Part shown: piece after piece, positions 25,395-29,388 of the stretch | Layout of the letters: every line of letters begins with the position of its first letter | Position numbering within the stretch: position 1 is the first letter of the stretch | IMG/VR virus record: IMGVR_UViG_3300029258_003280 | Coordinates: 1 to 55,522 of that record | Reading direction: 5' to 3' (one strand) | From: a virus | Taxonomy: Duplodnaviria > Caudoviricetes | Length of the DNA stretch: 55,522 bases | The notes under the pieces: generated by a model | What the model was told of the DNA's origin: nothing | The model's database searches: none | The model's input: only the letters and a program-made list of their open reading frames with translations | Position numbers and translations under genes: made by a program

Positions 25395-25672
25395 TCTTTC
25401 TCCTCTTTCGTCCCTATCTTTTCAAAAGCCATGATACAATAGCCTTCCGGCAAGCCGAAAACAGGCGGAGCATCCTTATAGATATAAGTCACTTTTACAT
25501 ATAAAGTCCTGCCGGTGAAGCGGCCGCCCCGGCGCTGGGGGATGAATTCGCGCAGCCGAAGCGTGTCTCCCACCCGAAAACCCCTGTCATCCTTGCGATA
25601 TTCGAAGGGTTTTTTACCTTCGAGCATTTCGCCGAAGGAATGGGGCCATGTTTTCAGAGTATGAACTTTCAT
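25391..25672 (-). CDS. DUF3850 / ASCH-like protein
   Basis: H.LK.WP..F.....G.K.FE.R.DDR.F.VGD.L.L.E signature. Confidence 0.85.
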   Translation of the reverse strand: MKVHTLKTWPHSFGEMLEGKKPFEYRKDDRGFRVGDTLRLREFIPQRRGGRFTGRTLYVKVTYIYKDAPPVFGLPEGYCIMAFEKIGTKEEKE

Positions 25673-25911
25673 TTATCACCTTCATACCACTCTTCTTTTA
25701 CTGTTACTTTTTGCAGGCCGGTAATCCTGTCTATCCCTATATTAAAGTTTCTATTACCGGCGAGACAATCCCCTTCGGGAATACCACCGGCCAGATTTAC
25801 GACATACGGGCGTCCGCATATTTCTATTCTTTCCGCCCCTAATATGTCCTTAAACCTGACAAAGACGGCGTTGGCCCCCTCGATAAACTTCTCAATTTCA
25901 AACTTGGTCAT
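25669..25911 (-). CDS. Hypothetical protein
   Basis: GGAGG RBS; the start lies inside the 50-bp direct repeat. Confidence 0.6.
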   Translation of the reverse strand: MTKFEIEKFIEGANAVFVRFKDILGAERIEICGRPYVVNLAGGIPEGDCLAGNRNFNIGIDRITGLQKVTVKEEWYEGDK

Positions 25912-25945
25912 AATACCTCCGCAGTACAGTACACTACTAAACCTT
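25896..25945. repeat. 50-bp direct repeat, copy 1
   Basis: Matches 26370-26419 with one mismatch. Confidence 0.9.
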
Positions 25946-26375
25946 AAACTATAATATAATTACCCATATATGTTCTTACACGGGTTGCTTTTTTTCGTGT
26001 TTTTGGTAGATGTAATTCATCTAATATTTTTTGGATAAGAGACCTCCGAGTAATATATTTGTCACAACATTTTTTACATAATTTTTTCAGAACACGAACA
26101 TGCCGAGAATTTTCAAGAAACCGGGTTTTTGCGCCGCACCATTTACATTTTACTACTCCTGTATAGTAAACAGGTGGTGAACATTCAATATACCCATCTC
26201 CTTCTCTATCTCCAAAAATTTTATTTCTTTCAAAGCCTAATATAAATGCACAATTTACACATAAAGGCTCATTGTTGTCATCGTATGCTGTCTCATCGCT
26301 ATTTATATATGTTCCGCAGTTATGGCAAATTTTATCCCAAGTTTCTTCCCTCATTTTTAAGTTTCCTTGTTTCAA
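25944..26375 (-). CDS. AT-rich Cys-rich (zinc-binding) protein between direct repeats
   Basis: Four CxxC pairs; visibly AT-rich; the likely start is the internal ATG (MREETWDK). Confidence 0.6.
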   Translation of the reverse strand: MKQGNLKMREETWDKICHNCGTYINSDETAYDDNNEPLCVNCAFILGFERNKIFGDREGDGYIECSPPVYYTGVVKCKWCGAKTRFLENSRHVRVLKKLCKKCCDKYITRRSLIQKILDELHLPKTRKKATRVRTYMGNYIIV

Positions 26376-26419
26376 ACTTGGTCATAATACCCCCGCAGTA
26401 CAGTACACTACTAAACCTT
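26370..26419. repeat. 50-bp direct repeat, copy 2
   Basis: Matches 25896-25945 and overlaps the distal end of the pentamer array. Confidence 0.9.
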
Positions 26420-26829
26420 GCCTTGACCTCACAGTGCGACACTAAACACTACCCTTACTTTACAACACCGCGCCTTACCTTACCCTTACGACACCTTACC
26501 AGACTAAACAGGACAGTCACAGTACTTTACAACACAGCACTAAACATTACCCTTACAAAACGCCACAAGACTAAACTTTACCATCACAGCACTATACGCC
26601 ACCATACACTACAACACGGTACCGTCACATTACCGGGCAAGACAACACAACACCGTCACAGTAAAAGACGCTACGCCACAACACATTATCCTACTAAACA
26701 TGACCTCAGCCATACAACATTCCACTTGACCAATACGGAACCAGACTTCACTTGACTTTACCTCTACATCGCTCTACGCTACTTTACCGGCACGGTACAG
26801 TACGCTATGTGACAAAACGGAACCGCCAC
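26395..26829 (-). ncRNA. Periodic non-coding array (GT-NNN)n with hexamer punctuation; candidate guide-RNA array
   Basis: Manual parse: 71 five-nt and 13 six-nt units; 74 of 85 anchors are GT and 7 are GC on the minus strand. Lies directly downstream of the Cas7-like gene. The repeat structure is seen directly; RNA status is inferred. Confidence 0.75.
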
Positions 26830-26833
26830 CTAA

Positions 26834-26845
26834 TTGTCAAAGAGC
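26834..26845 (-). promoter_or_regulatory. boxA-like antitermination element in front of the array
   Basis: Minus strand reads GCTCTTTGACAA, close to the rrn boxA TGCTCTTTAACA. Confidence 0.65.
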
Positions 26846-26846
26846 T

Positions 26847-26875
26847 TGTAACGGGGCGATGGCCGCCCCGCTACA
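26847..26875 (-). other. Stem-loop between the Cas7-like gene and the array
   Basis: TGTAACGGGGCG and CGCCCCGCTACA form a 12-bp stem with one G-U pair in the minus-strand RNA. Confidence 0.65.
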
Positions 26876-26889
26876 GGTCGTCATGAGCG

Positions 26890-27543
26890 CTATTCTACAA
26901 AGACATACTTGAAGCGGCCGTAATCCGCGTTTCTCCATTGGCCTATGCCTTTGAATTCGCCGTAATCGAGCCATTCCTCGATGCAGTCGAGCAAGTCCGG
27001 CGCGAGCGTGACAACTTCTATCCGGCACGTAGTCCCGGCCGGTATCATCTCGCTCCGGGCGATAGAAATCCGCTCTCCCTGCGGAGTCTGGGCCCTGAGC
27101 GGCCGCTCTAACATGGTCGGCTTGGTGCCCTCGGGGAGAGTGAGAATAATCTTCCGGGGATAGACGAAGACATGCCGGTTAATGCGCTTGCTGAAATTTT
27201 TCTTGACCTTCTCGGAGGCCGTCCCTTTTATCGGATAAAGCGCCTGACAGGCCGCCTTGAAGAAGCCCTTGAACATGTAGTTATAGATGAATATCTTGCC
27301 GTCGTCATCCCGAAGAAAGAATGTGCTCCTCTTGTCGGCCTCATCCTGAAAGTCCTTGAGCGTCTCCTTGAGCGTTTTTAAATGCTCAACCTCGACCTCG
27401 GCCGGGATTTCTTCCCCCTTCTTTCTGGCCGCCTCGATAATATGCTTGATAAGTATGTCCACATCGCCCGGATTCGTCCCCAAAACCGGCTCGATAAAAG
27501 TCACATCCGCCACCAACTTAGTCAAAAGCCCTTTCAATGCCAT
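26890..27543 (-). CDS. Stand-alone Cas7/RAMP-like RNA-binding protein
   Basis: N-terminal strand VTFIEPVLGT, a helix with FKGFFKAAC, SEMIPAGT..RIEV, and a C-terminal Gly-rich loop GIGQWRNADYGRF typical of RAMPs; AAGGAG RBS. Confidence 0.75.
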   Translation of the reverse strand: MALKGLLTKLVADVTFIEPVLGTNPGDVDILIKHIIEAARKKGEEIPAEVEVEHLKTLKETLKDFQDEADKRSTFFLRDDDGKIFIYNYMFKGFFKAACQALYPIKGTASEKVKKNFSKRINRHVFVYPRKIILTLPEGTKPTMLERPLRAQTPQGERISIARSEMIPAGTTCRIEVVTLAPDLLDCIEEWLDYGEFKGIGQWRNADYGRFKYVFVE

Positions 27544-27567
27544 AATTGGCTCCTTTCATAAATAGGG

Positions 27568-27873
27568 CTACTGTTTAATCTCCGGAACACCCCGGAGTTT
27601 TCTTGTCTGGTTTATCCATTTTTTTACGAGCTCCACGTTTGTCGTTGCTATCATTCTTAATTGAAGACAGCAGAGAAATATCCTCTTGACGAGAGCCCAT
27701 CTGGCGAAGTAGTCCAGCATTATCTTGCCTTTAATGCTCAACCTGTATGGATGGACGTCATCGCTCTCATCCCGGATAGAAGCGTAAGGAAACTCGGCTT
27801 CGAGCTCCTTCTTGACCTTTTCGTAGTCTTCGGAATTTTCCAGATAAATCAACTCTATCATTTGTTCCACCAA
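27568..27873 (-). CDS. Hypothetical protein
   Basis: Tiles the operon immediately upstream of the Cas7-like gene. Confidence 0.55.
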   Translation of the reverse strand: MVEQMIELIYLENSEDYEKVKKELEAEFPYASIRDESDDVHPYRLSIKGKIMLDYFARWALVKRIFLCCLQLRMIATTNVELVKKWINQTRKLRGVPEIKQ

Positions 27874-28091
27874 AAGTTTTCTACATTGCCGTTGTTGTGC
27901 CAGTTGTTTCTCGATACCGGGCCCGGGGTCTCTTTATGTGTCTCTCCCCGGACGATGGCGGAGATGGTCGTGGTGCTAACGCCGAATTTTTCCGCAAGCT
28001 CTTTCATTTTGTATTTTTTCGTGGCATATAGCTGGCGAATCTCTATTACATCCCCGCGATAAAGCTTGTCTCTTATGCCGGTTTTGTTCAT
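27858..28091 (-). CDS. Small helix-turn-helix protein
   Basis: V.EIR.LY..MKELAEKFGVSTTTISAIVRG. Confidence 0.75.
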   Translation of the reverse strand: MNKTGIRDKLYRGDVIEIRQLYATKKYKMKELAEKFGVSTTTISAIVRGETHKETPGPVSRNNWHNNGNVENFWWNK

Positions 28092-28353: not shown

Positions 28354-28594
28354 CGCGCTTCCTGTTGATATAATGGCCAACGCATAAACCCGTAAAAAAT
28401 GCAAACAGGTTATTAAGAGACGCCCATCCAAGTCCTGCTACGGCAGTGAAGATAAATGTCACCAGCATTATAGCGCCTAACAAGAATAGTCCCATTTCGC
28501 TTGAACTCCGGTTAGCCTCATCCTTGGCTGTGTAGCCCACAAGAAGACCTGCCAGATAAGCGGACACAAGATTAGCAACTACGATACCTGTCAT
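28343..28594 (-). CDS. Small membrane protein
   Basis: Three hydrophobic segments; AGGAG RBS. Confidence 0.55.
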   Translation of the reverse strand: MTGIVVANLVSAYLAGLLVGYTAKDEANRSSSEMGLFLLGAIMLVTFIFTAVAGLGWASLNNLFAFFTGLCVGHYINRKRDGS

Positions 28595-28649
28595 AATAAT
28601 CTCCTAAAGGGACGGGCCACTAACGGGTTCAGCGTGTAGTGGGTGGATA

Positions 28650-28961
28650 TCATGCCCGTCCCTTCTTCTTTATAACTACTTCGTAAAATTCCGTATTGAG
28701 TCTTATCCCCCGGCTCTGCTCTTTGTCCTTTATTATGTATTTCTTTTCGGCAAGCTGGTTGACGACTTGGGCGGCCCGGGTATGCTGCCACTTCATATGC
28801 GATGCTATCTCCCGGAGCGTAGGGGGCCTATGTATTTTGGCAATACACTTGACTATAATGTTGAACACATCGCGCTCGGTAGGCAATAGATTCGCGAGCT
28901 TGCGGCGCTGGGCCGCCTTGAGCTTCCTGATATGCTTTTTTATGCCTCTACTTTTTTTCAA
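28650..28961 (-). CDS. LexA-like DNA-binding (winged helix) protein without the peptidase domain
   Basis: PPTLREIA..MK.......V..L..K.YI.......RGIRL. Confidence 0.8.
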   Translation of the reverse strand: MKKSRGIKKHIRKLKAAQRRKLANLLPTERDVFNIIVKCIAKIHRPPTLREIASHMKWQHTRAAQVVNQLAEKKYIIKDKEQSRGIRLNTEFYEVVIKKKGRA

Positions 28962-29388
28962 ATTCTTCTCCTATAGGATACAGGTTGTTGAGTTGTTCGG
29001 CGAAGACATATTTCTTGCGGTTGTATGTTAAGTCCCATTTCCTGCCGTGGCTTGCCCACGTATCGGCGAGCTCTTCATCGGTGACCGCCCTCCAAACGCC
29101 GAGCTTGACTTCTATTGCAATGCAATTAATTCTTTCCAGTCCCCTGCCGTCTTCTTCAAACCATCTTGAGGTATCTACGAATGCATCCATGTAGTCATAG
29201 TCATCCCGCTCTATCGTATCGAGGCGATATTCAATCTCTCGCCTGACTTCCGGGATGACCATTTCCTTAATTACTTCTATCGCTTCCCGCCTTGTCATGT
29301 CTTTCCTTCGCAGTAAAGGGGATGGCTCTGGATAACGTGATACAGCCTGAATGTGGTTTTGGTGCGTACAGTTACCATCCCCTTCCAT
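28948..29388 (-). CDS. Hypothetical protein
   Basis: Likely start at the internal MTRREAIE after AAGGA. Confidence 0.55.
   Translation of the reverse strand: MEGDGNCTHQNHIQAVSRYPEPSPLLRRKDMTRREAIEVIKEMVIPEVRREIEYRLDTIERDDYDYMDAFVDTSRWFEEDGRGLERINCIAIEVKLGVWRAVTDEELADTWASHGRKWDLTYNRKKYVFAEQLNNLYPIGEEFEKK

What the first reader, a model, noticed from the sequence alone, without database searches (positions are those of the whole stretch)
26395..26829. Higher-order grammar in the array: hexamer punctuation defines guide-sized blocks
My manual parse gives 71 pentamers and 13 hexamers. On the + strand the runs of pentamers before each hexamer are 5,5,5,5,6,5,7,5,9,4,5,4,6, so the modal block is 31 nt. 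Twelve of the 13 hexamer inserts (cttg, cctt x3, catc, cgtc x2, ctca, caat, ctct, cggc, cgcc; exception agtc) begin with C, creating GGY on the sense strand at each phase shift. The variable triplet strings differ between blocks, which simple microsatellite slippage would not produce. Inference: the hexamers are processing sites or filament boundaries that split the transcript into about 13 distinct guides of crRNA-like length.
Basis: partly seen in the sequence, partly recalled or inferred. Interest (0 to 1): 0.85.

Follow-up and report, generated by a model that had tools for sequence, protein, structure and literature searches.

The report
Punctuated VIPR guide-RNA array in phage
The five-base repeat array with a six-base step about every sixth unit is real and conserved, and it is the guide-RNA array of a VIPR system (a CRISPR-related phage device first described in 2026), so it is a new example of a known kind.

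Summary
On the minus (gene-sense) strand, 26390-26829 is about 85 units of G-T-N-N-N. Thirteen steps are 6 nt long, and 12 of the 13 carry an added G (GGT). Nine of 11 gaps between these steps are 5-7 units, a level reached by 0 of 20,000 permutations.

The upstream 217-aa gene has a Cas7 fold. In 81 of 81 viral loci and 78 of 85 further loci, its homologues sit beside a G-periodic array on the same strand. Those arrays show the same punctuation: the added base is G in 80-87%, and the modal spacing is 6 units, or 31 nt.

This matches VIPR systems (Vipr protein plus pentanucleotide vrRNA), described in 2026 bioRxiv preprints. These already mention YNNNG/NNNNG repeats and 'staggered' arrays. Their cryo-EM filament has a six-subunit periodicity.

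The hexamers are therefore selected block boundaries. Whether the RNA is cut there into about 13 guides is not shown: I found no RNA data and no targets.

This scan has noted the same architecture before on other phage DNA.

Verdict: new member of a known kind, moderate-low interest.

The parts
26890..27543 (-). vipr-like gene: a 217-aa stand-alone Cas7-fold (RAMP) protein
   Evidence: No Pfam family above cut-off and no PHROG family. The AlphaFold2 model has mean pLDDT 90.8. Foldseek finds type VII Cas7 8z4j_J at E 1.2e-7 and Csm3 6xn3_F at E 1e-6. VIA-align finds Csm3 9g9a_D at Z 11.9, rmsd 3.1, 155 residues aligned. There are 2157 homologues with E<=1e-3 among 2421 candidates. hhalign against the SUSP1 Vipr family gives Prob 53%, E 1.3e-4, over 181 collinear columns.
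26390..26829 (-). vrRNA-type array: about 85 units of G-T-N-N-N (YNNNG type) with 13 six-nt steps. It reads 5'->3' from 26829 down to 26390.
   Evidence: Parses and statistics. The Fourier peak is at 5.15 nt, with G as the periodic base on the minus strand. Position 2 is T in 77 of 84 units and C in 7 of 84. No Rfam match. The RNA folds no better than shuffles, z -0.16.
26415..26827 (-). The 13 six-nt steps (block boundaries). Their + strand starts are 26415, 26451, 26482, 26513, 26549, 26580, 26621, 26652, 26703, 26729, 26760, 26786 and 26822. Start-to-start distances are 36, 31, 31, 36, 31, 41, 31, 51, 26, 31, 26 and 36 nt.
   Evidence: Read from the AC positions and the unit list. Twelve of 13 are ACCNNN on the + strand, which is NNNGGT on the minus strand.
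26456..26589 (-). Internal tandem duplication of 67 nt (two blocks, 13 units). The copies are 75% identical.
   Evidence: By eye in the output, most differences fall in the variable positions and most AC anchors are kept.
26852..26870 (-). GC-rich hairpin between the gene's stop codon and the array: a 7-bp stem (CGGGGCG / CGCCCCG) with a 5-nt loop.
   Evidence: Read directly from the sequence. The terminator scan does not call it. It is absent in the 78%-identical relative L088, where the array starts at the stop codon.
27858..28091 (-). 77-aa helix-turn-helix gene two genes upstream. It is a possible vap-like accessory gene, but this is not shown.
   Evidence: Pfam HTH_3 at E 3.6e-6. A 68-75-aa ORF lies directly upstream of the vipr-like gene in 40 of 82 sources; its one tested member (L004) matches HTH_3 at E 1.6e-5. 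BLASTP finds no similarity between the window's neighbours and those loci.
25944..26375 (-). 143-aa zinc-ribbon-like gene inserted between the array and the next gene. It is flanked by a 50-bp duplication (25896-25945 and 26370-26419, 98% identical).
   Evidence: for the repeat and for the ORF. In L088 the array is followed directly by the homologue of gene 25669-25911.

Best explanation
The array is the guide-RNA (vrRNA) array of a VIPR system. It is transcribed on the minus strand together with the vipr-like gene 26890-27543.

By analogy with the published type II system, one Cas7-fold protomer binds each 5-nt unit. It holds the constant G and pyrimidine and presents the variable bases for gapped pairing with double-stranded DNA of competing mobile elements.

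In this family only one G per unit is fixed (YNNNG or NNNNG type). This fits the replacement of the two residues that read the first G in SUSP1 Vipr.

About every sixth unit carries an added G, making GGY. This is a selected boundary mark that divides the array into modules of 5-7 units (26-36 nt). The modules are duplicated, lost and replaced as units.

Most likely each module is a short, tail-less guide unit, the 'staggered' array form of VIPR, roughly one helical turn of filament long.

Shown here: the periodicity, the punctuation, their conservation, the gene-array linkage and the Cas7 fold. Inferred: RNA binding, DNA targeting, and whether the RNA is actually cut at the boundaries.

Gene-array linkage:
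- In 81 of 81 IMG/VR loci, the strongest 4.6-5.8-nt period in the locus lies within about 1.2 kb of the homologous gene. The period is 5.10-5.20 in 80 of them. The periodic base is G on the gene's strand in 79.
- A strict parse finds a + strand array in 82 of 82 sources and in 78 of 85 independent metagenome and genome loci.

Punctuation is conserved:
- In 46 non-redundant arrays the added base is G in 87% of 642 hexamers. Of 574 spacings, 136 are 5 units, 188 are 6 and 99 are 7. The sd is 1.97, against 5.16 expected for random placement.
- 72.3% of spacings fall in 5-7, against 20.5% after shuffling unit order. 35 of 43 arrays have at least 60% of spacings in 5-7.
- Replication in 78 further arrays: 60.7% in 5-7, and G in 80% of 1265 hexamers.

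The boundary context is more conserved than the interior:
- In the unit before the added G, position 2 is C in 82% and position 4 is A in 69%. Elsewhere these values are about 50% and 33%.

Arrays are modular and hypervariable:
- Arrays vary strongly between conserved flanks.
- Twelve of 29 distinct indels are whole blocks.
- The window itself carries a 67-nt two-block duplication.

Protein:
- Cas7 fold.
- The alignment to the SUSP1 Vipr family is collinear, with G-loop GxGDWRP against GxGQWRN.
- SUSP1 residues H17 and D177, which read G1 according to the preprint section read, align to T23 and Q202 here. W178 and R179, which read G2 and Y3, are kept as W203 and R204.

Literature:
- bioRxiv 10.64898/2026.04.26.720920. 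I read the Results, Discussion and Methods sections 18, 20 and 26, plus figure legends. [quoted passage not shown]
- bioRxiv 10.64898/2026.04.26.720927. I read passages and sections 5 and 9. It reports one protomer per repeat and a binary filament with six-subunit periodicity.

Control:
- SUSP1's own tracts of 15, 14, 6 and 11 in-phase units have no internal 6-nt step. Three of the four (15, 14 and 11 units) are closed by one at the junction to the tail; the 6-unit tract is followed by a 13-nt spacing.
Against: - No RNA evidence. No RNA run holds this DNA.
- No target was found for any decoding rule in the 0.96 Mb I could search locally.
- Blocks of about 6 units are shorter than the 9-16 repeats of the vrRNAs studied at the bench.
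- The array has no recognisable 3' tail or ribozyme.
- Sequence homology to a validated Vipr is weak. hhalign gives Prob 53%. The family profile does not hit the deposited SUSP1 Vipr chain 36pp_D at E<=1, while it hits type VII Cas7 at E 1e-3.
- Homology breakpoints between related arrays are only modestly enriched at the junctions: 21.8% lie within 2 nt, against 16.3% expected, n=472.
- Thirteen of 29 indels are single or multiple 5-nt units, so blocks are not indivisible.
- In the window's own GT lineage the words next to the boundary are only weakly conserved.
- I could read only the legend of the preprint's Fig. S18, not the figure, so the equation with 'staggered arrays' is an inference.
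Confidence: 0.6

Rival explanations
1. Continuous filament. The whole array, or long parts of it, is one vrRNA coated by one long filament. The added G about once per six protomers is a structural register or hinge, one extra base per helical turn. It is not a boundary between guides, and the RNA is not cut.
For: The published binary Vipr-vrRNA filament has a six-subunit periodicity, and five in the DNA-bound state. The modal spacings here are 6, 5 and 7 units. The cryo-EM preprint's discussion says that filament length follows vrRNA length, with natural vrRNAs of up to 30 repeats. In the window's lineage the array lies inside an operon with no terminator on either side.
Against: Type II vrRNAs run 14-15 units, more than two turns, without any 6-nt step, so the filament does not need one. 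Spacings vary from 4 to 10 without compensation, lag-1 correlation +0.13, so the marks would drift around the helix. The units next to the mark are conserved words in many lineages, and a continuous target could hardly match those. Arrays reach 217 units and are mosaics.
Confidence: 0.25
2. Neutral relic. The arrays grew by tandem duplication of an ancestral module of about 31 nt, and the six-nt step is merely inherited with it and has no function.
For: A 67-nt two-block duplication in the window. Whole-block indels between relatives.
Against: Variable positions have diverged to near-random, about 1.9-2.0 bits. Yet the added base stays G in 80-87% and the spacing stays 5-7 across arrays of phages from many phyla, whose proteins are only 36-48% identical to the window's. 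That pattern indicates selection.
Confidence: 0.05
3. DNA-level element. The steps keep a 5.15-bp (10.3 bp per two units) lattice in phase with the DNA helix for a DNA-wrapping protein or an origin.
For: The mean period of 5.15 nt doubles to 10.3, which is close to the helical repeat of B-DNA (the helical repeat is general knowledge).
Against: A lattice predicts that a long spacing is followed by a short one. The lag-1 correlation is +0.13, whereas shuffles give -0.07 +/- 0.04. The periodic G is on the gene's sense strand in 79 of 81 loci, whether the array lies upstream or downstream of the gene. The partner protein has an RNA-binding Cas7 fold.
Confidence: 0.03
4. CRISPR-like reading. Each 31-nt block is a contiguous crRNA-type spacer bound by a class 1-type Cas7 backbone with 6-nt periodicity.
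For: The protein's closest solved folds are Csm3 and type VII Cas7. The block length resembles that of spacers.
Against: The period is 5.15 nt, not 6. There are no long direct repeats. Pfam finds no other cas gene among ten neighbouring ORFs. A fixed G-Y in every unit would be pointless in a contiguous guide.
Confidence: 0.02

Closest known systems
VIPR systems (Vipr protein plus vrRNA). The type II exemplar is Escherichia phage SUSP1, bioRxiv 10.64898/2026.04.26.720920 and 10.64898/2026.04.26.720927.
   Same: - A stand-alone small RAMP/Cas7-fold protein carried on a phage.
- An adjacent non-coding array of 5-nt units on the same strand, with constant G and pyrimidine and variable remaining bases.
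- A C-terminal G-loop motif of the form GxGxWR...GRF.
- Hypervariable arrays between conserved flanks.
- A small HTH gene nearby in many loci.
   Different: - The unit is G-Y-N-N-N (one fixed G, three free bases), not GG-Y-N-N.
- The aligned residues for the first G differ: H17/D177 against T23/Q202.
- There is no leader and no 3' pseudoknot tail between tracts.
- Tracts are about 6 units long, not 9-16, and abut each other, separated only by one added G.
- The array is 85 units long here and up to 217 in relatives.
- Sequence similarity of the proteins is only at profile level (Prob 53%).
'Staggered vrRNA arrays' and the alternative YNNNG/NNNNG repeats of the same preprint (main text, Methods 'VIPR type classification', legend of Fig. 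S18).
   Same: The repeat consensus matches. The array is continuous, and the end of one tract is the start of the next, with a one-nucleotide offset of the pentamer register.
   Different: I could not see the figure or the data files, so identity is inferred. The preprint's text gives no block length, no GG rule and no statistics. It also says that only the other two array types were confirmed by sRNA-seq.
Class 1 CRISPR-Cas backbones (Cas7/Csm3/Cmr4 on crRNA).
   Same: The Cas7 fold, with thumb and G-loop. One protomer binds per short RNA segment. The guide function in silencing or defence is presumed, not shown.
   Different: The step is 5 nt rather than 6, and it is sequence-specific. There is no repeat-spacer array. 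No Cas5, Cas6, Cas10, Cas8 or Cas1 was found among the neighbours. The system is phage-borne.
TRAP-type RNA binding (11 (G/U)AG triplets with 2-3-nt spacers in the Bacillus trp leader; recalled from general knowledge, not from a call).
   Same: A short fixed motif recurs every 5-6 nt on a single-stranded RNA, with one motif per protein subunit.
   Different: TRAP binds 11 sites on a closed ring. It has no variable 'code' positions, no block structure, an unrelated fold, and a regulatory rather than guide function.

Membership tests
VIPR system | Stand-alone RAMP protein (RRM core, G-loop, thumb) outside a CRISPR-Cas locus | tested here: met
   Confident model, pLDDT 90.8. Cas7/Csm3 matches: E 1.2e-7 and Z 11.9. 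C-terminal G-loop GIGQWRNADYGRF. None of ten neighbouring ORFs matches a cas family in Pfam.
VIPR system | Adjacent tandem pentanucleotide repeats (GGY/NN, or the alternative NNNGG, YNNNG or NNNNG) on the gene's strand | tested here: met
   The window has 84-86 units of G-T-N-N-N. 82 of 82 and 78 of 85 homologous loci carry such an array. The preprint's Methods list YNNNG and NNNNG repeats.
VIPR system | Protein belongs to the Vipr clade (homology to a validated Vipr) | tested here: inconclusive
   hhalign of the family profile against the SUSP1 family profile gives Prob 53.2%, E 1.3e-4, over 181 collinear columns. Against the single SUSP1 sequence it gives Prob 26.7%. hmmsearch with the family profile does not reach the SUSP1 Vipr chain 36pp_D at E<=1. 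No Vipr structure appeared among the matches from the fold libraries searched.
VIPR system | vrRNA is expressed, is about 100 nt or shorter, and co-purifies with the protein | not testable with these tools
   No RNA run was listed for this DNA, so there are no data on this either way.
VIPR system | Invariable structured 3' tail after each repeat tract (type II) | tested here: not met
   No tail or leader lies between blocks. No Rfam family matches. The fold z-score is -0.16. The preprint states that array architecture differs between types, so this feature defines type II rather than VIPR as a whole.
VIPR system | Accessory vap gene next to vipr | tested here: inconclusive
   A 77-aa HTH_3 gene lies two genes upstream. 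A small ORF lies directly upstream in 40 of 82 sources; its one tested member (L004) matches HTH_3. BLASTP finds no neighbour shared between the window and those loci.
VIPR system | Variable bases pair with dsDNA targets of competing elements by a skip rule | tested here: inconclusive
   Local searches with 12 and 16 rule variants against 0.56 and 0.96 Mb found nothing above shuffled-unit decoys. The few excess hits were homologous flanks or over-extended parses. The database was far too small for a fair test.
Staggered vrRNA array (VIPR sub-form) | Abutting vrRNAs whose boundaries are offset by one nucleotide within a continuous array | tested here: inconclusive
   The register shifts by +1 at each of 13 steps, and relatives show the same. 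Only the legend of Fig. S18 could be read.
Class 1 CRISPR-Cas | Repeat-spacer array with direct repeats of about 23-50 nt and a 6-nt Cas7 register | tested here: not met
   The period is 5.15 nt. The only direct repeats found are a 67-nt duplication and a 50-bp duplication.

The most novel reading that the evidence does not exclude
The added G every 5-7 units is a minimal guide terminator. In this reading, this large VIPR branch (more than 2000 protein clusters) has replaced the structured 3' tail with a single extra G, plus a short conserved word in many lineages. Dozens of tail-less guides, each one filament turn long (about 6 protomers, 12-18 specified bases), are then packed head to tail, and block length is set by the six-subunit helical repeat of the filament. 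That would be the shortest and densest natural guide-RNA format known. It would also be a case where filament geometry, rather than an RNA hairpin or a ribozyme, measures the guide.
Probability: 0.3. Interest if true: 0.55.

Novelty: new member of a known kind. Interest (0 to 1): 0.3.

Why it matters
VIPR is a very recent, preprint-stage class of RNA-guided DNA binders proposed to pre-date CRISPR. So far only its type II form, with long tracts and structured tails, has been dissected at the bench.

This window and its 160-odd relatives give a quantitative description of another form. That form has one fixed G per unit, three free bases, and blocks of about six units closed by an added G.

If the blocks prove to be separate guides, three questions follow: how so few specified bases give useful specificity, what cuts or measures the RNA, and whether the six-subunit helical repeat of the filament sets guide length.

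The practical value is a compact array format for multiplexed guides. As a scan result, it is a confirmation of a known kind rather than a discovery.

Tried and rejected
- Tandem Repeats Finder did not call the 5-nt array.
- A permissive G-anchored parse ran far into coding DNA and I discarded it. All counts use the stricter parse. Even that parse over-extends in a few GC-rich loci. I dropped L051 before the counts (one search used only the new loci). I dropped L084 from the counts because it is the same contig as L001. L120, L164, L098 and L118 contribute some spurious short spacings.
- Rfam gave no match in 25800-27700.
- The promoter/terminator scan found nothing in or next to the array above chance.
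- No RNA holder was listed among the 6 runs found, all of them DNA.
- DNA helical-lattice idea: rejected because successive spacings do not compensate.
- Codon-like signature of the variable triplets: TAG (18 observed, 55 expected) and TAA (51 observed, 90 expected) are depleted. But TGA is not (41 against 39) and CTA is (10 against 28). This looks like TA avoidance, not stop-codon avoidance, so it is inconclusive.
- Target search: two local searches over 0.56 and 0.96 Mb of loci plus the window, using 16 and 12 decoding rules with shuffled-unit decoys, found no excess. The excess for period-5 and period-6 rules was traced to homologous array ends, flanks and mis-parsed coding DNA. I did not send decoded patterns to the public collections, because that would mean typing changed sequence.
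- The family profile does not hit SUSP1 Vipr in the PDB sequence file. No Vipr chain was listed by Foldseek or VIA-align.
- Complex prediction was not used. A filament without its RNA is a poor case for it, and the report does not rest on it.
- Supplementary files and figures of the preprints could not be seen. Fig. S17, Fig. S18 and data S4 may already show this family and its punctuation.
- In the passages I read, no text gives the GG rule, the 5-7-unit spacing or a link to the six-subunit repeat. 'hexa' and 'hexam' had 0 occurrences in the two main preprints.
This call repeats it with that field added.
Full report
**What is there.** The 515-bp gap between two minus-strand genes (25944-26375 and 26890-27543) is filled by a C-rich, G-poor stretch on the + strand: C 148, A 148, T 86, G 53. 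AC recurs every 5 nt (42 of 86 spacings) or every 6 nt (11 of 86). A dynamic-programming parse gives 86 units, 72 pentamers and 14 hexamers, and 75 of them start with AC. On the minus strand, the sense strand of the flanking genes, the unit reads G-T-N-N-N and the six-nt step reads G-G-T-N-N-N.

**It is not chance.** The array has one sharp Fourier peak at 5.15 nt with power 14.7. The maximum is 3.89 in 271 other windows of the contig and 4.27 in 200 shuffles. In the stricter G-anchored parse, 9 of 11 spacings between six-nt steps are 5-7 units. None of 20,000 permutations of unit order reaches that. The added base is G in 11 of 12 steps, whereas G is at position 5 in 13 of 72 pentamers.

**The partner gene.** The 217-aa product of 26890-27543 has no Pfam family above cut-off and no PHROG family. 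It does have 2157 homologues at E<=1e-3 among 2421 candidates. Its AlphaFold2 model is confident, with pLDDT 90.8, and it has a Cas7 fold. Foldseek finds type VII Cas7 at E 1.2e-7 and Csm3 at E 1e-6. VIA-align finds Csm3 at Z 11.9 (rmsd 3.1, 155 aligned), Cmr Cas7 at Z 11.5 and type VII Cas7 at Z 10.5.

**Linkage of gene and array.**
- In 81 of 81 IMG/VR loci that encode a homologue, the strongest 4.6-5.8-nt periodicity in the roughly 6.5-kb locus lies within about 1.2 kb of the gene, either downstream or upstream. The period is 5.10-5.20 in 80 loci and 4.95 in one. The periodic base is G on the gene's strand in 79 and A in 2.
- A strict parse finds a same-strand array in 82 of 82 sources. Six loci have arrays on both sides of the gene.
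- I replicated this on 85 independent loci from metagenome and genome contigs spanning Omnitrophota, Planctomycetota, Clostridia, Coriobacteriia, Bacteroidota, Chloroflexota and others. Of these, 78 have such an array, 5 have none at the threshold (two of those are cut contigs), and 2 register only on the other strand.
- BLASTP finds no other gene of the window's neighbourhood shared with these loci.
- A 68-75-aa ORF lies directly upstream of the gene in 40 of 82 sources, and its one tested member (L004) matches HTH_3. The window has a 77-aa HTH gene two genes upstream.

**The higher-order grammar is conserved.**
- In 46 non-redundant arrays, position 1 of the pentamer is G in 95% of 3229 units. 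The added base of the six-nt step is G in 87% of 642 steps.
- Of 574 spacings between steps, 136 are 5 units, 188 are 6 and 99 are 7. The mean is 5.69 and the sd 1.97, against 5.16 expected for random placement.
- 72.3% of spacings lie in 5-7, against 20.5% after shuffling unit order. 35 of 43 arrays have at least 60% of spacings in that range.
- The second set of 78 non-redundant arrays gives 60.7% in 5-7 (n=1187, including some spurious short spacings from over-extended parses) and G in 80% of 1265 steps.
- In many lineages the units flanking the added G form a conserved word, for example GCAAW-G-GAAWN or GCGAM-G. In the unit before the G, position 2 is C in 82% and position 4 is A in 69%, against about 50% and 33% in interior units. 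In the window's own GT lineage (the window plus L088, whose protein is 78% identical) the word is weak and the mark is mainly the added G.

**Blocks behave as modules.**
- Successive spacings do not compensate each other. The lag-1 correlation is +0.13, whereas shuffles give -0.07 +/- 0.04. This argues against a rigid 5.15-nt (10.3-bp) lattice and in favour of independent blocks.
- Thirteen closely related phages have near-identical flanks, namely the gene's end and a terminator hairpin after the array. Their arrays are mosaics.
- Among 110 related array pairs I found 29 distinct internal indels with clean flanks. Twelve are whole blocks (21, 26, 31, 36 x5, 62 x3 and 67 nt). Thirteen are multiples of 5 (5 x5, 10 x4, 20 x4). 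Four are other lengths.
- Homology breakpoints are only modestly enriched near the junctions: 21.8% lie within 2 nt, against 16.3% expected, n=472.
- The window itself carries a 67-nt tandem duplication of two blocks at 75% identity.

**What it is.** A full-text search led to bioRxiv 10.64898/2026.04.26.720920. I read its Results, Discussion, Methods sections 18, 20 and 26, and figure legends.
- It describes VIPR systems: a phage-borne RAMP (Vipr) flanked by arrays of YNNGG pentamers (vrRNAs). The variable NN bases pair with dsDNA using a one-base skip, and this silences competing phages and satellites.
- It recognises seven types. Its Methods mention the alternative NNNGG, YNNNG and NNNNG repeats.
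- It says that only the ribozyme-interspersed and single-vrRNA forms were confirmed by sRNA-seq.

The companion cryo-EM preprint, 10.64898/2026.04.26.720927, I read as passages plus sections 5 and 9. It shows one protomer per repeat and a binary filament with six-subunit periodicity and a pitch of about 72 A, dropping to five subunits when DNA is bound. G1 is read by H17 and D177, G2 by R138 and W178, and Y3 by a pocket that includes R179.

I read passages of two further preprints. 10.64898/2026.10.21.760802 reports 21 clusters with non-canonical 5-mer motifs next to Vipr-like folds. 10.64898/2026.10.15.759431 deals with the SUSP1 system.

**Direct comparison with SUSP1.**
- I fetched SUSP1 (KT454805.2). 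Its Vipr is the gene at 28474-29061 on the minus strand. The flanking tracts are 15, 14, 6 and 11 in-phase NNGGY units with no internal six-nt step. Three of them (15, 14 and 11 units) end with a six-nt step at the junction to the tail, ATGGGT in the two whose sequence I read; the 6-unit tract is followed by a 13-nt spacing. These tails share one sequence, so this is effectively a single observation.
- Profile-profile comparison of the window's family (A1, 47 sequences) with the SUSP1 family (A2, 39 sequences) gives Prob 53%, E 1.3e-4, over 181 collinear columns. The G-loops align: GVGDWRPRFGRF against GIGQWRNADYGRF.
- In that alignment W178 and R179 are kept as W203 and R204. The two G1 readers are replaced, with H17 aligning to T23 and D177 to Q202, and Q202 is at least 90% conserved in the family. 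This fits an array in which only one G per unit is fixed. It is an inference from a weak alignment.
- By hmmsearch the family profile does not reach the deposited SUSP1 Vipr chain. Its best PDB hit is type VII Cas7 at E 1e-3. Clade membership is therefore not settled here.

**Mechanism.** The steps below are inferred by analogy, except where I state otherwise.
- The array is transcribed with the gene. In L088 it starts at the stop codon and runs straight into the next gene.
- In the window a GC-rich hairpin lies between the gene and the array, but the scan does not call it a terminator.
- The array RNA is no more structured than its shuffles, z -0.16.
- Protomers bind one unit each and present the free bases.
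- The added G closes modules of 5-7 units.

I favour modules as separate short guides or guide segments, with confidence about 0.6 for the whole statement and about 0.4 for actual cutting. My reasons are:
- the conserved boundary words could not pair with arbitrary targets;
- type II filaments need no such step over 14-15 units;
- spacings do not compensate;
- arrays are mosaics that reach 217 units.

The main rival, at 0.25, is a continuous filament with one extra base per six-subunit turn. The match between the spacing and the published helical repeat supports it.

**What failed.** No RNA run holds this DNA. Local target searches under many decoding rules found nothing real. The figures and supplementary data of the preprints could not be seen.

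**Context and verdict.** The contig (55,522 bp, the whole assembly) is phage-like. It has a primase-type 968-aa protein and a virion structural protein hit. DNA runs that hold it are labelled sediment and seawater metagenomes. Earlier notes of this scan describe the same kind of array, 'blocks closed by GG hexamers' or 'staggered guide array', in other phage genomes. I reached the same reading independently. The finding is a true, well-conserved feature and a new member of a known, very recent kind.

Noticed in passing
window 25896-25945 and 26370-26419; gene 25944-26375 (-): A 50-bp direct repeat (98% identical) brackets an AT-rich 143-aa zinc-ribbon-like gene that lies between the array's 3' end and the next gene. 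In the 78%-identical relative L088 the array is followed directly by the homologue of gene 25669-25911, so the 143-aa gene looks like a recent insertion with duplication of the junction.
   Followed up: partly
L082 (Escherichia phage phiSUSP1) 27499-28031 and 29061-29511, minus strand: The validated type II vrRNA tracts (15, 14, 6 and 11 in-phase NNGGY units) have no internal six-nt step. Three of them (15, 14 and 11 units) end with one at the junction to the tail, ATGGGT with an extra G in the two I read, which resembles the added G that closes blocks in the window's family; the 6-unit tract is followed by a 13-nt spacing. The tails share one sequence, so this is not independent evidence.
   Followed up: partly
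L065, L067, L068, L070, L074, L078 (IMG/VR loci): These loci carry G-periodic arrays on both sides of the vipr-like gene: 43-78 units upstream and 70-80 units downstream, all on the gene's strand.
   Followed up: no
L086, L096, L101 (full flanks); L149, L159: Three loci encode a homologue but show no G-anchored array at my threshold within 2.5 kb. Two others register only on the opposite strand. They may use another constant base or a more distant array.
   Followed up: no
variable triplets of 46 arrays: TAG (18 observed, 55 expected), TAA (51 against 90) and CTA (10 against 28) are depleted among the three free bases, while TGA is not (41 against 39). This suggests avoidance of the TA dinucleotide, cause unknown.
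   Followed up: partly
L002 4953-5633; L004 4366-4905: Downstream of the arrays, the gut-phage loci carry an ERF-family recombinase gene (19 loci in its cluster) or a 3D-domain gene (13 loci). The module therefore sits in the early/recombination region of these phages.
   Followed up: no
window 26834-26845 (-): Another first-stage note reports a boxA-like motif just 5' of the array. I saw the TTGACA within it, but the promoter scan called nothing there.
   Followed up: no
other genomes (scan notes e1-5802627, e1-6077715, e1-6101467): Other agents of this scan report VIPR-like arrays written entirely in six-base units (four fixed bases, two free). If that is real, the Vipr-like fold can accommodate a 6-nt step, which bears on how the single six-nt steps here are bound.
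   Followed up: no
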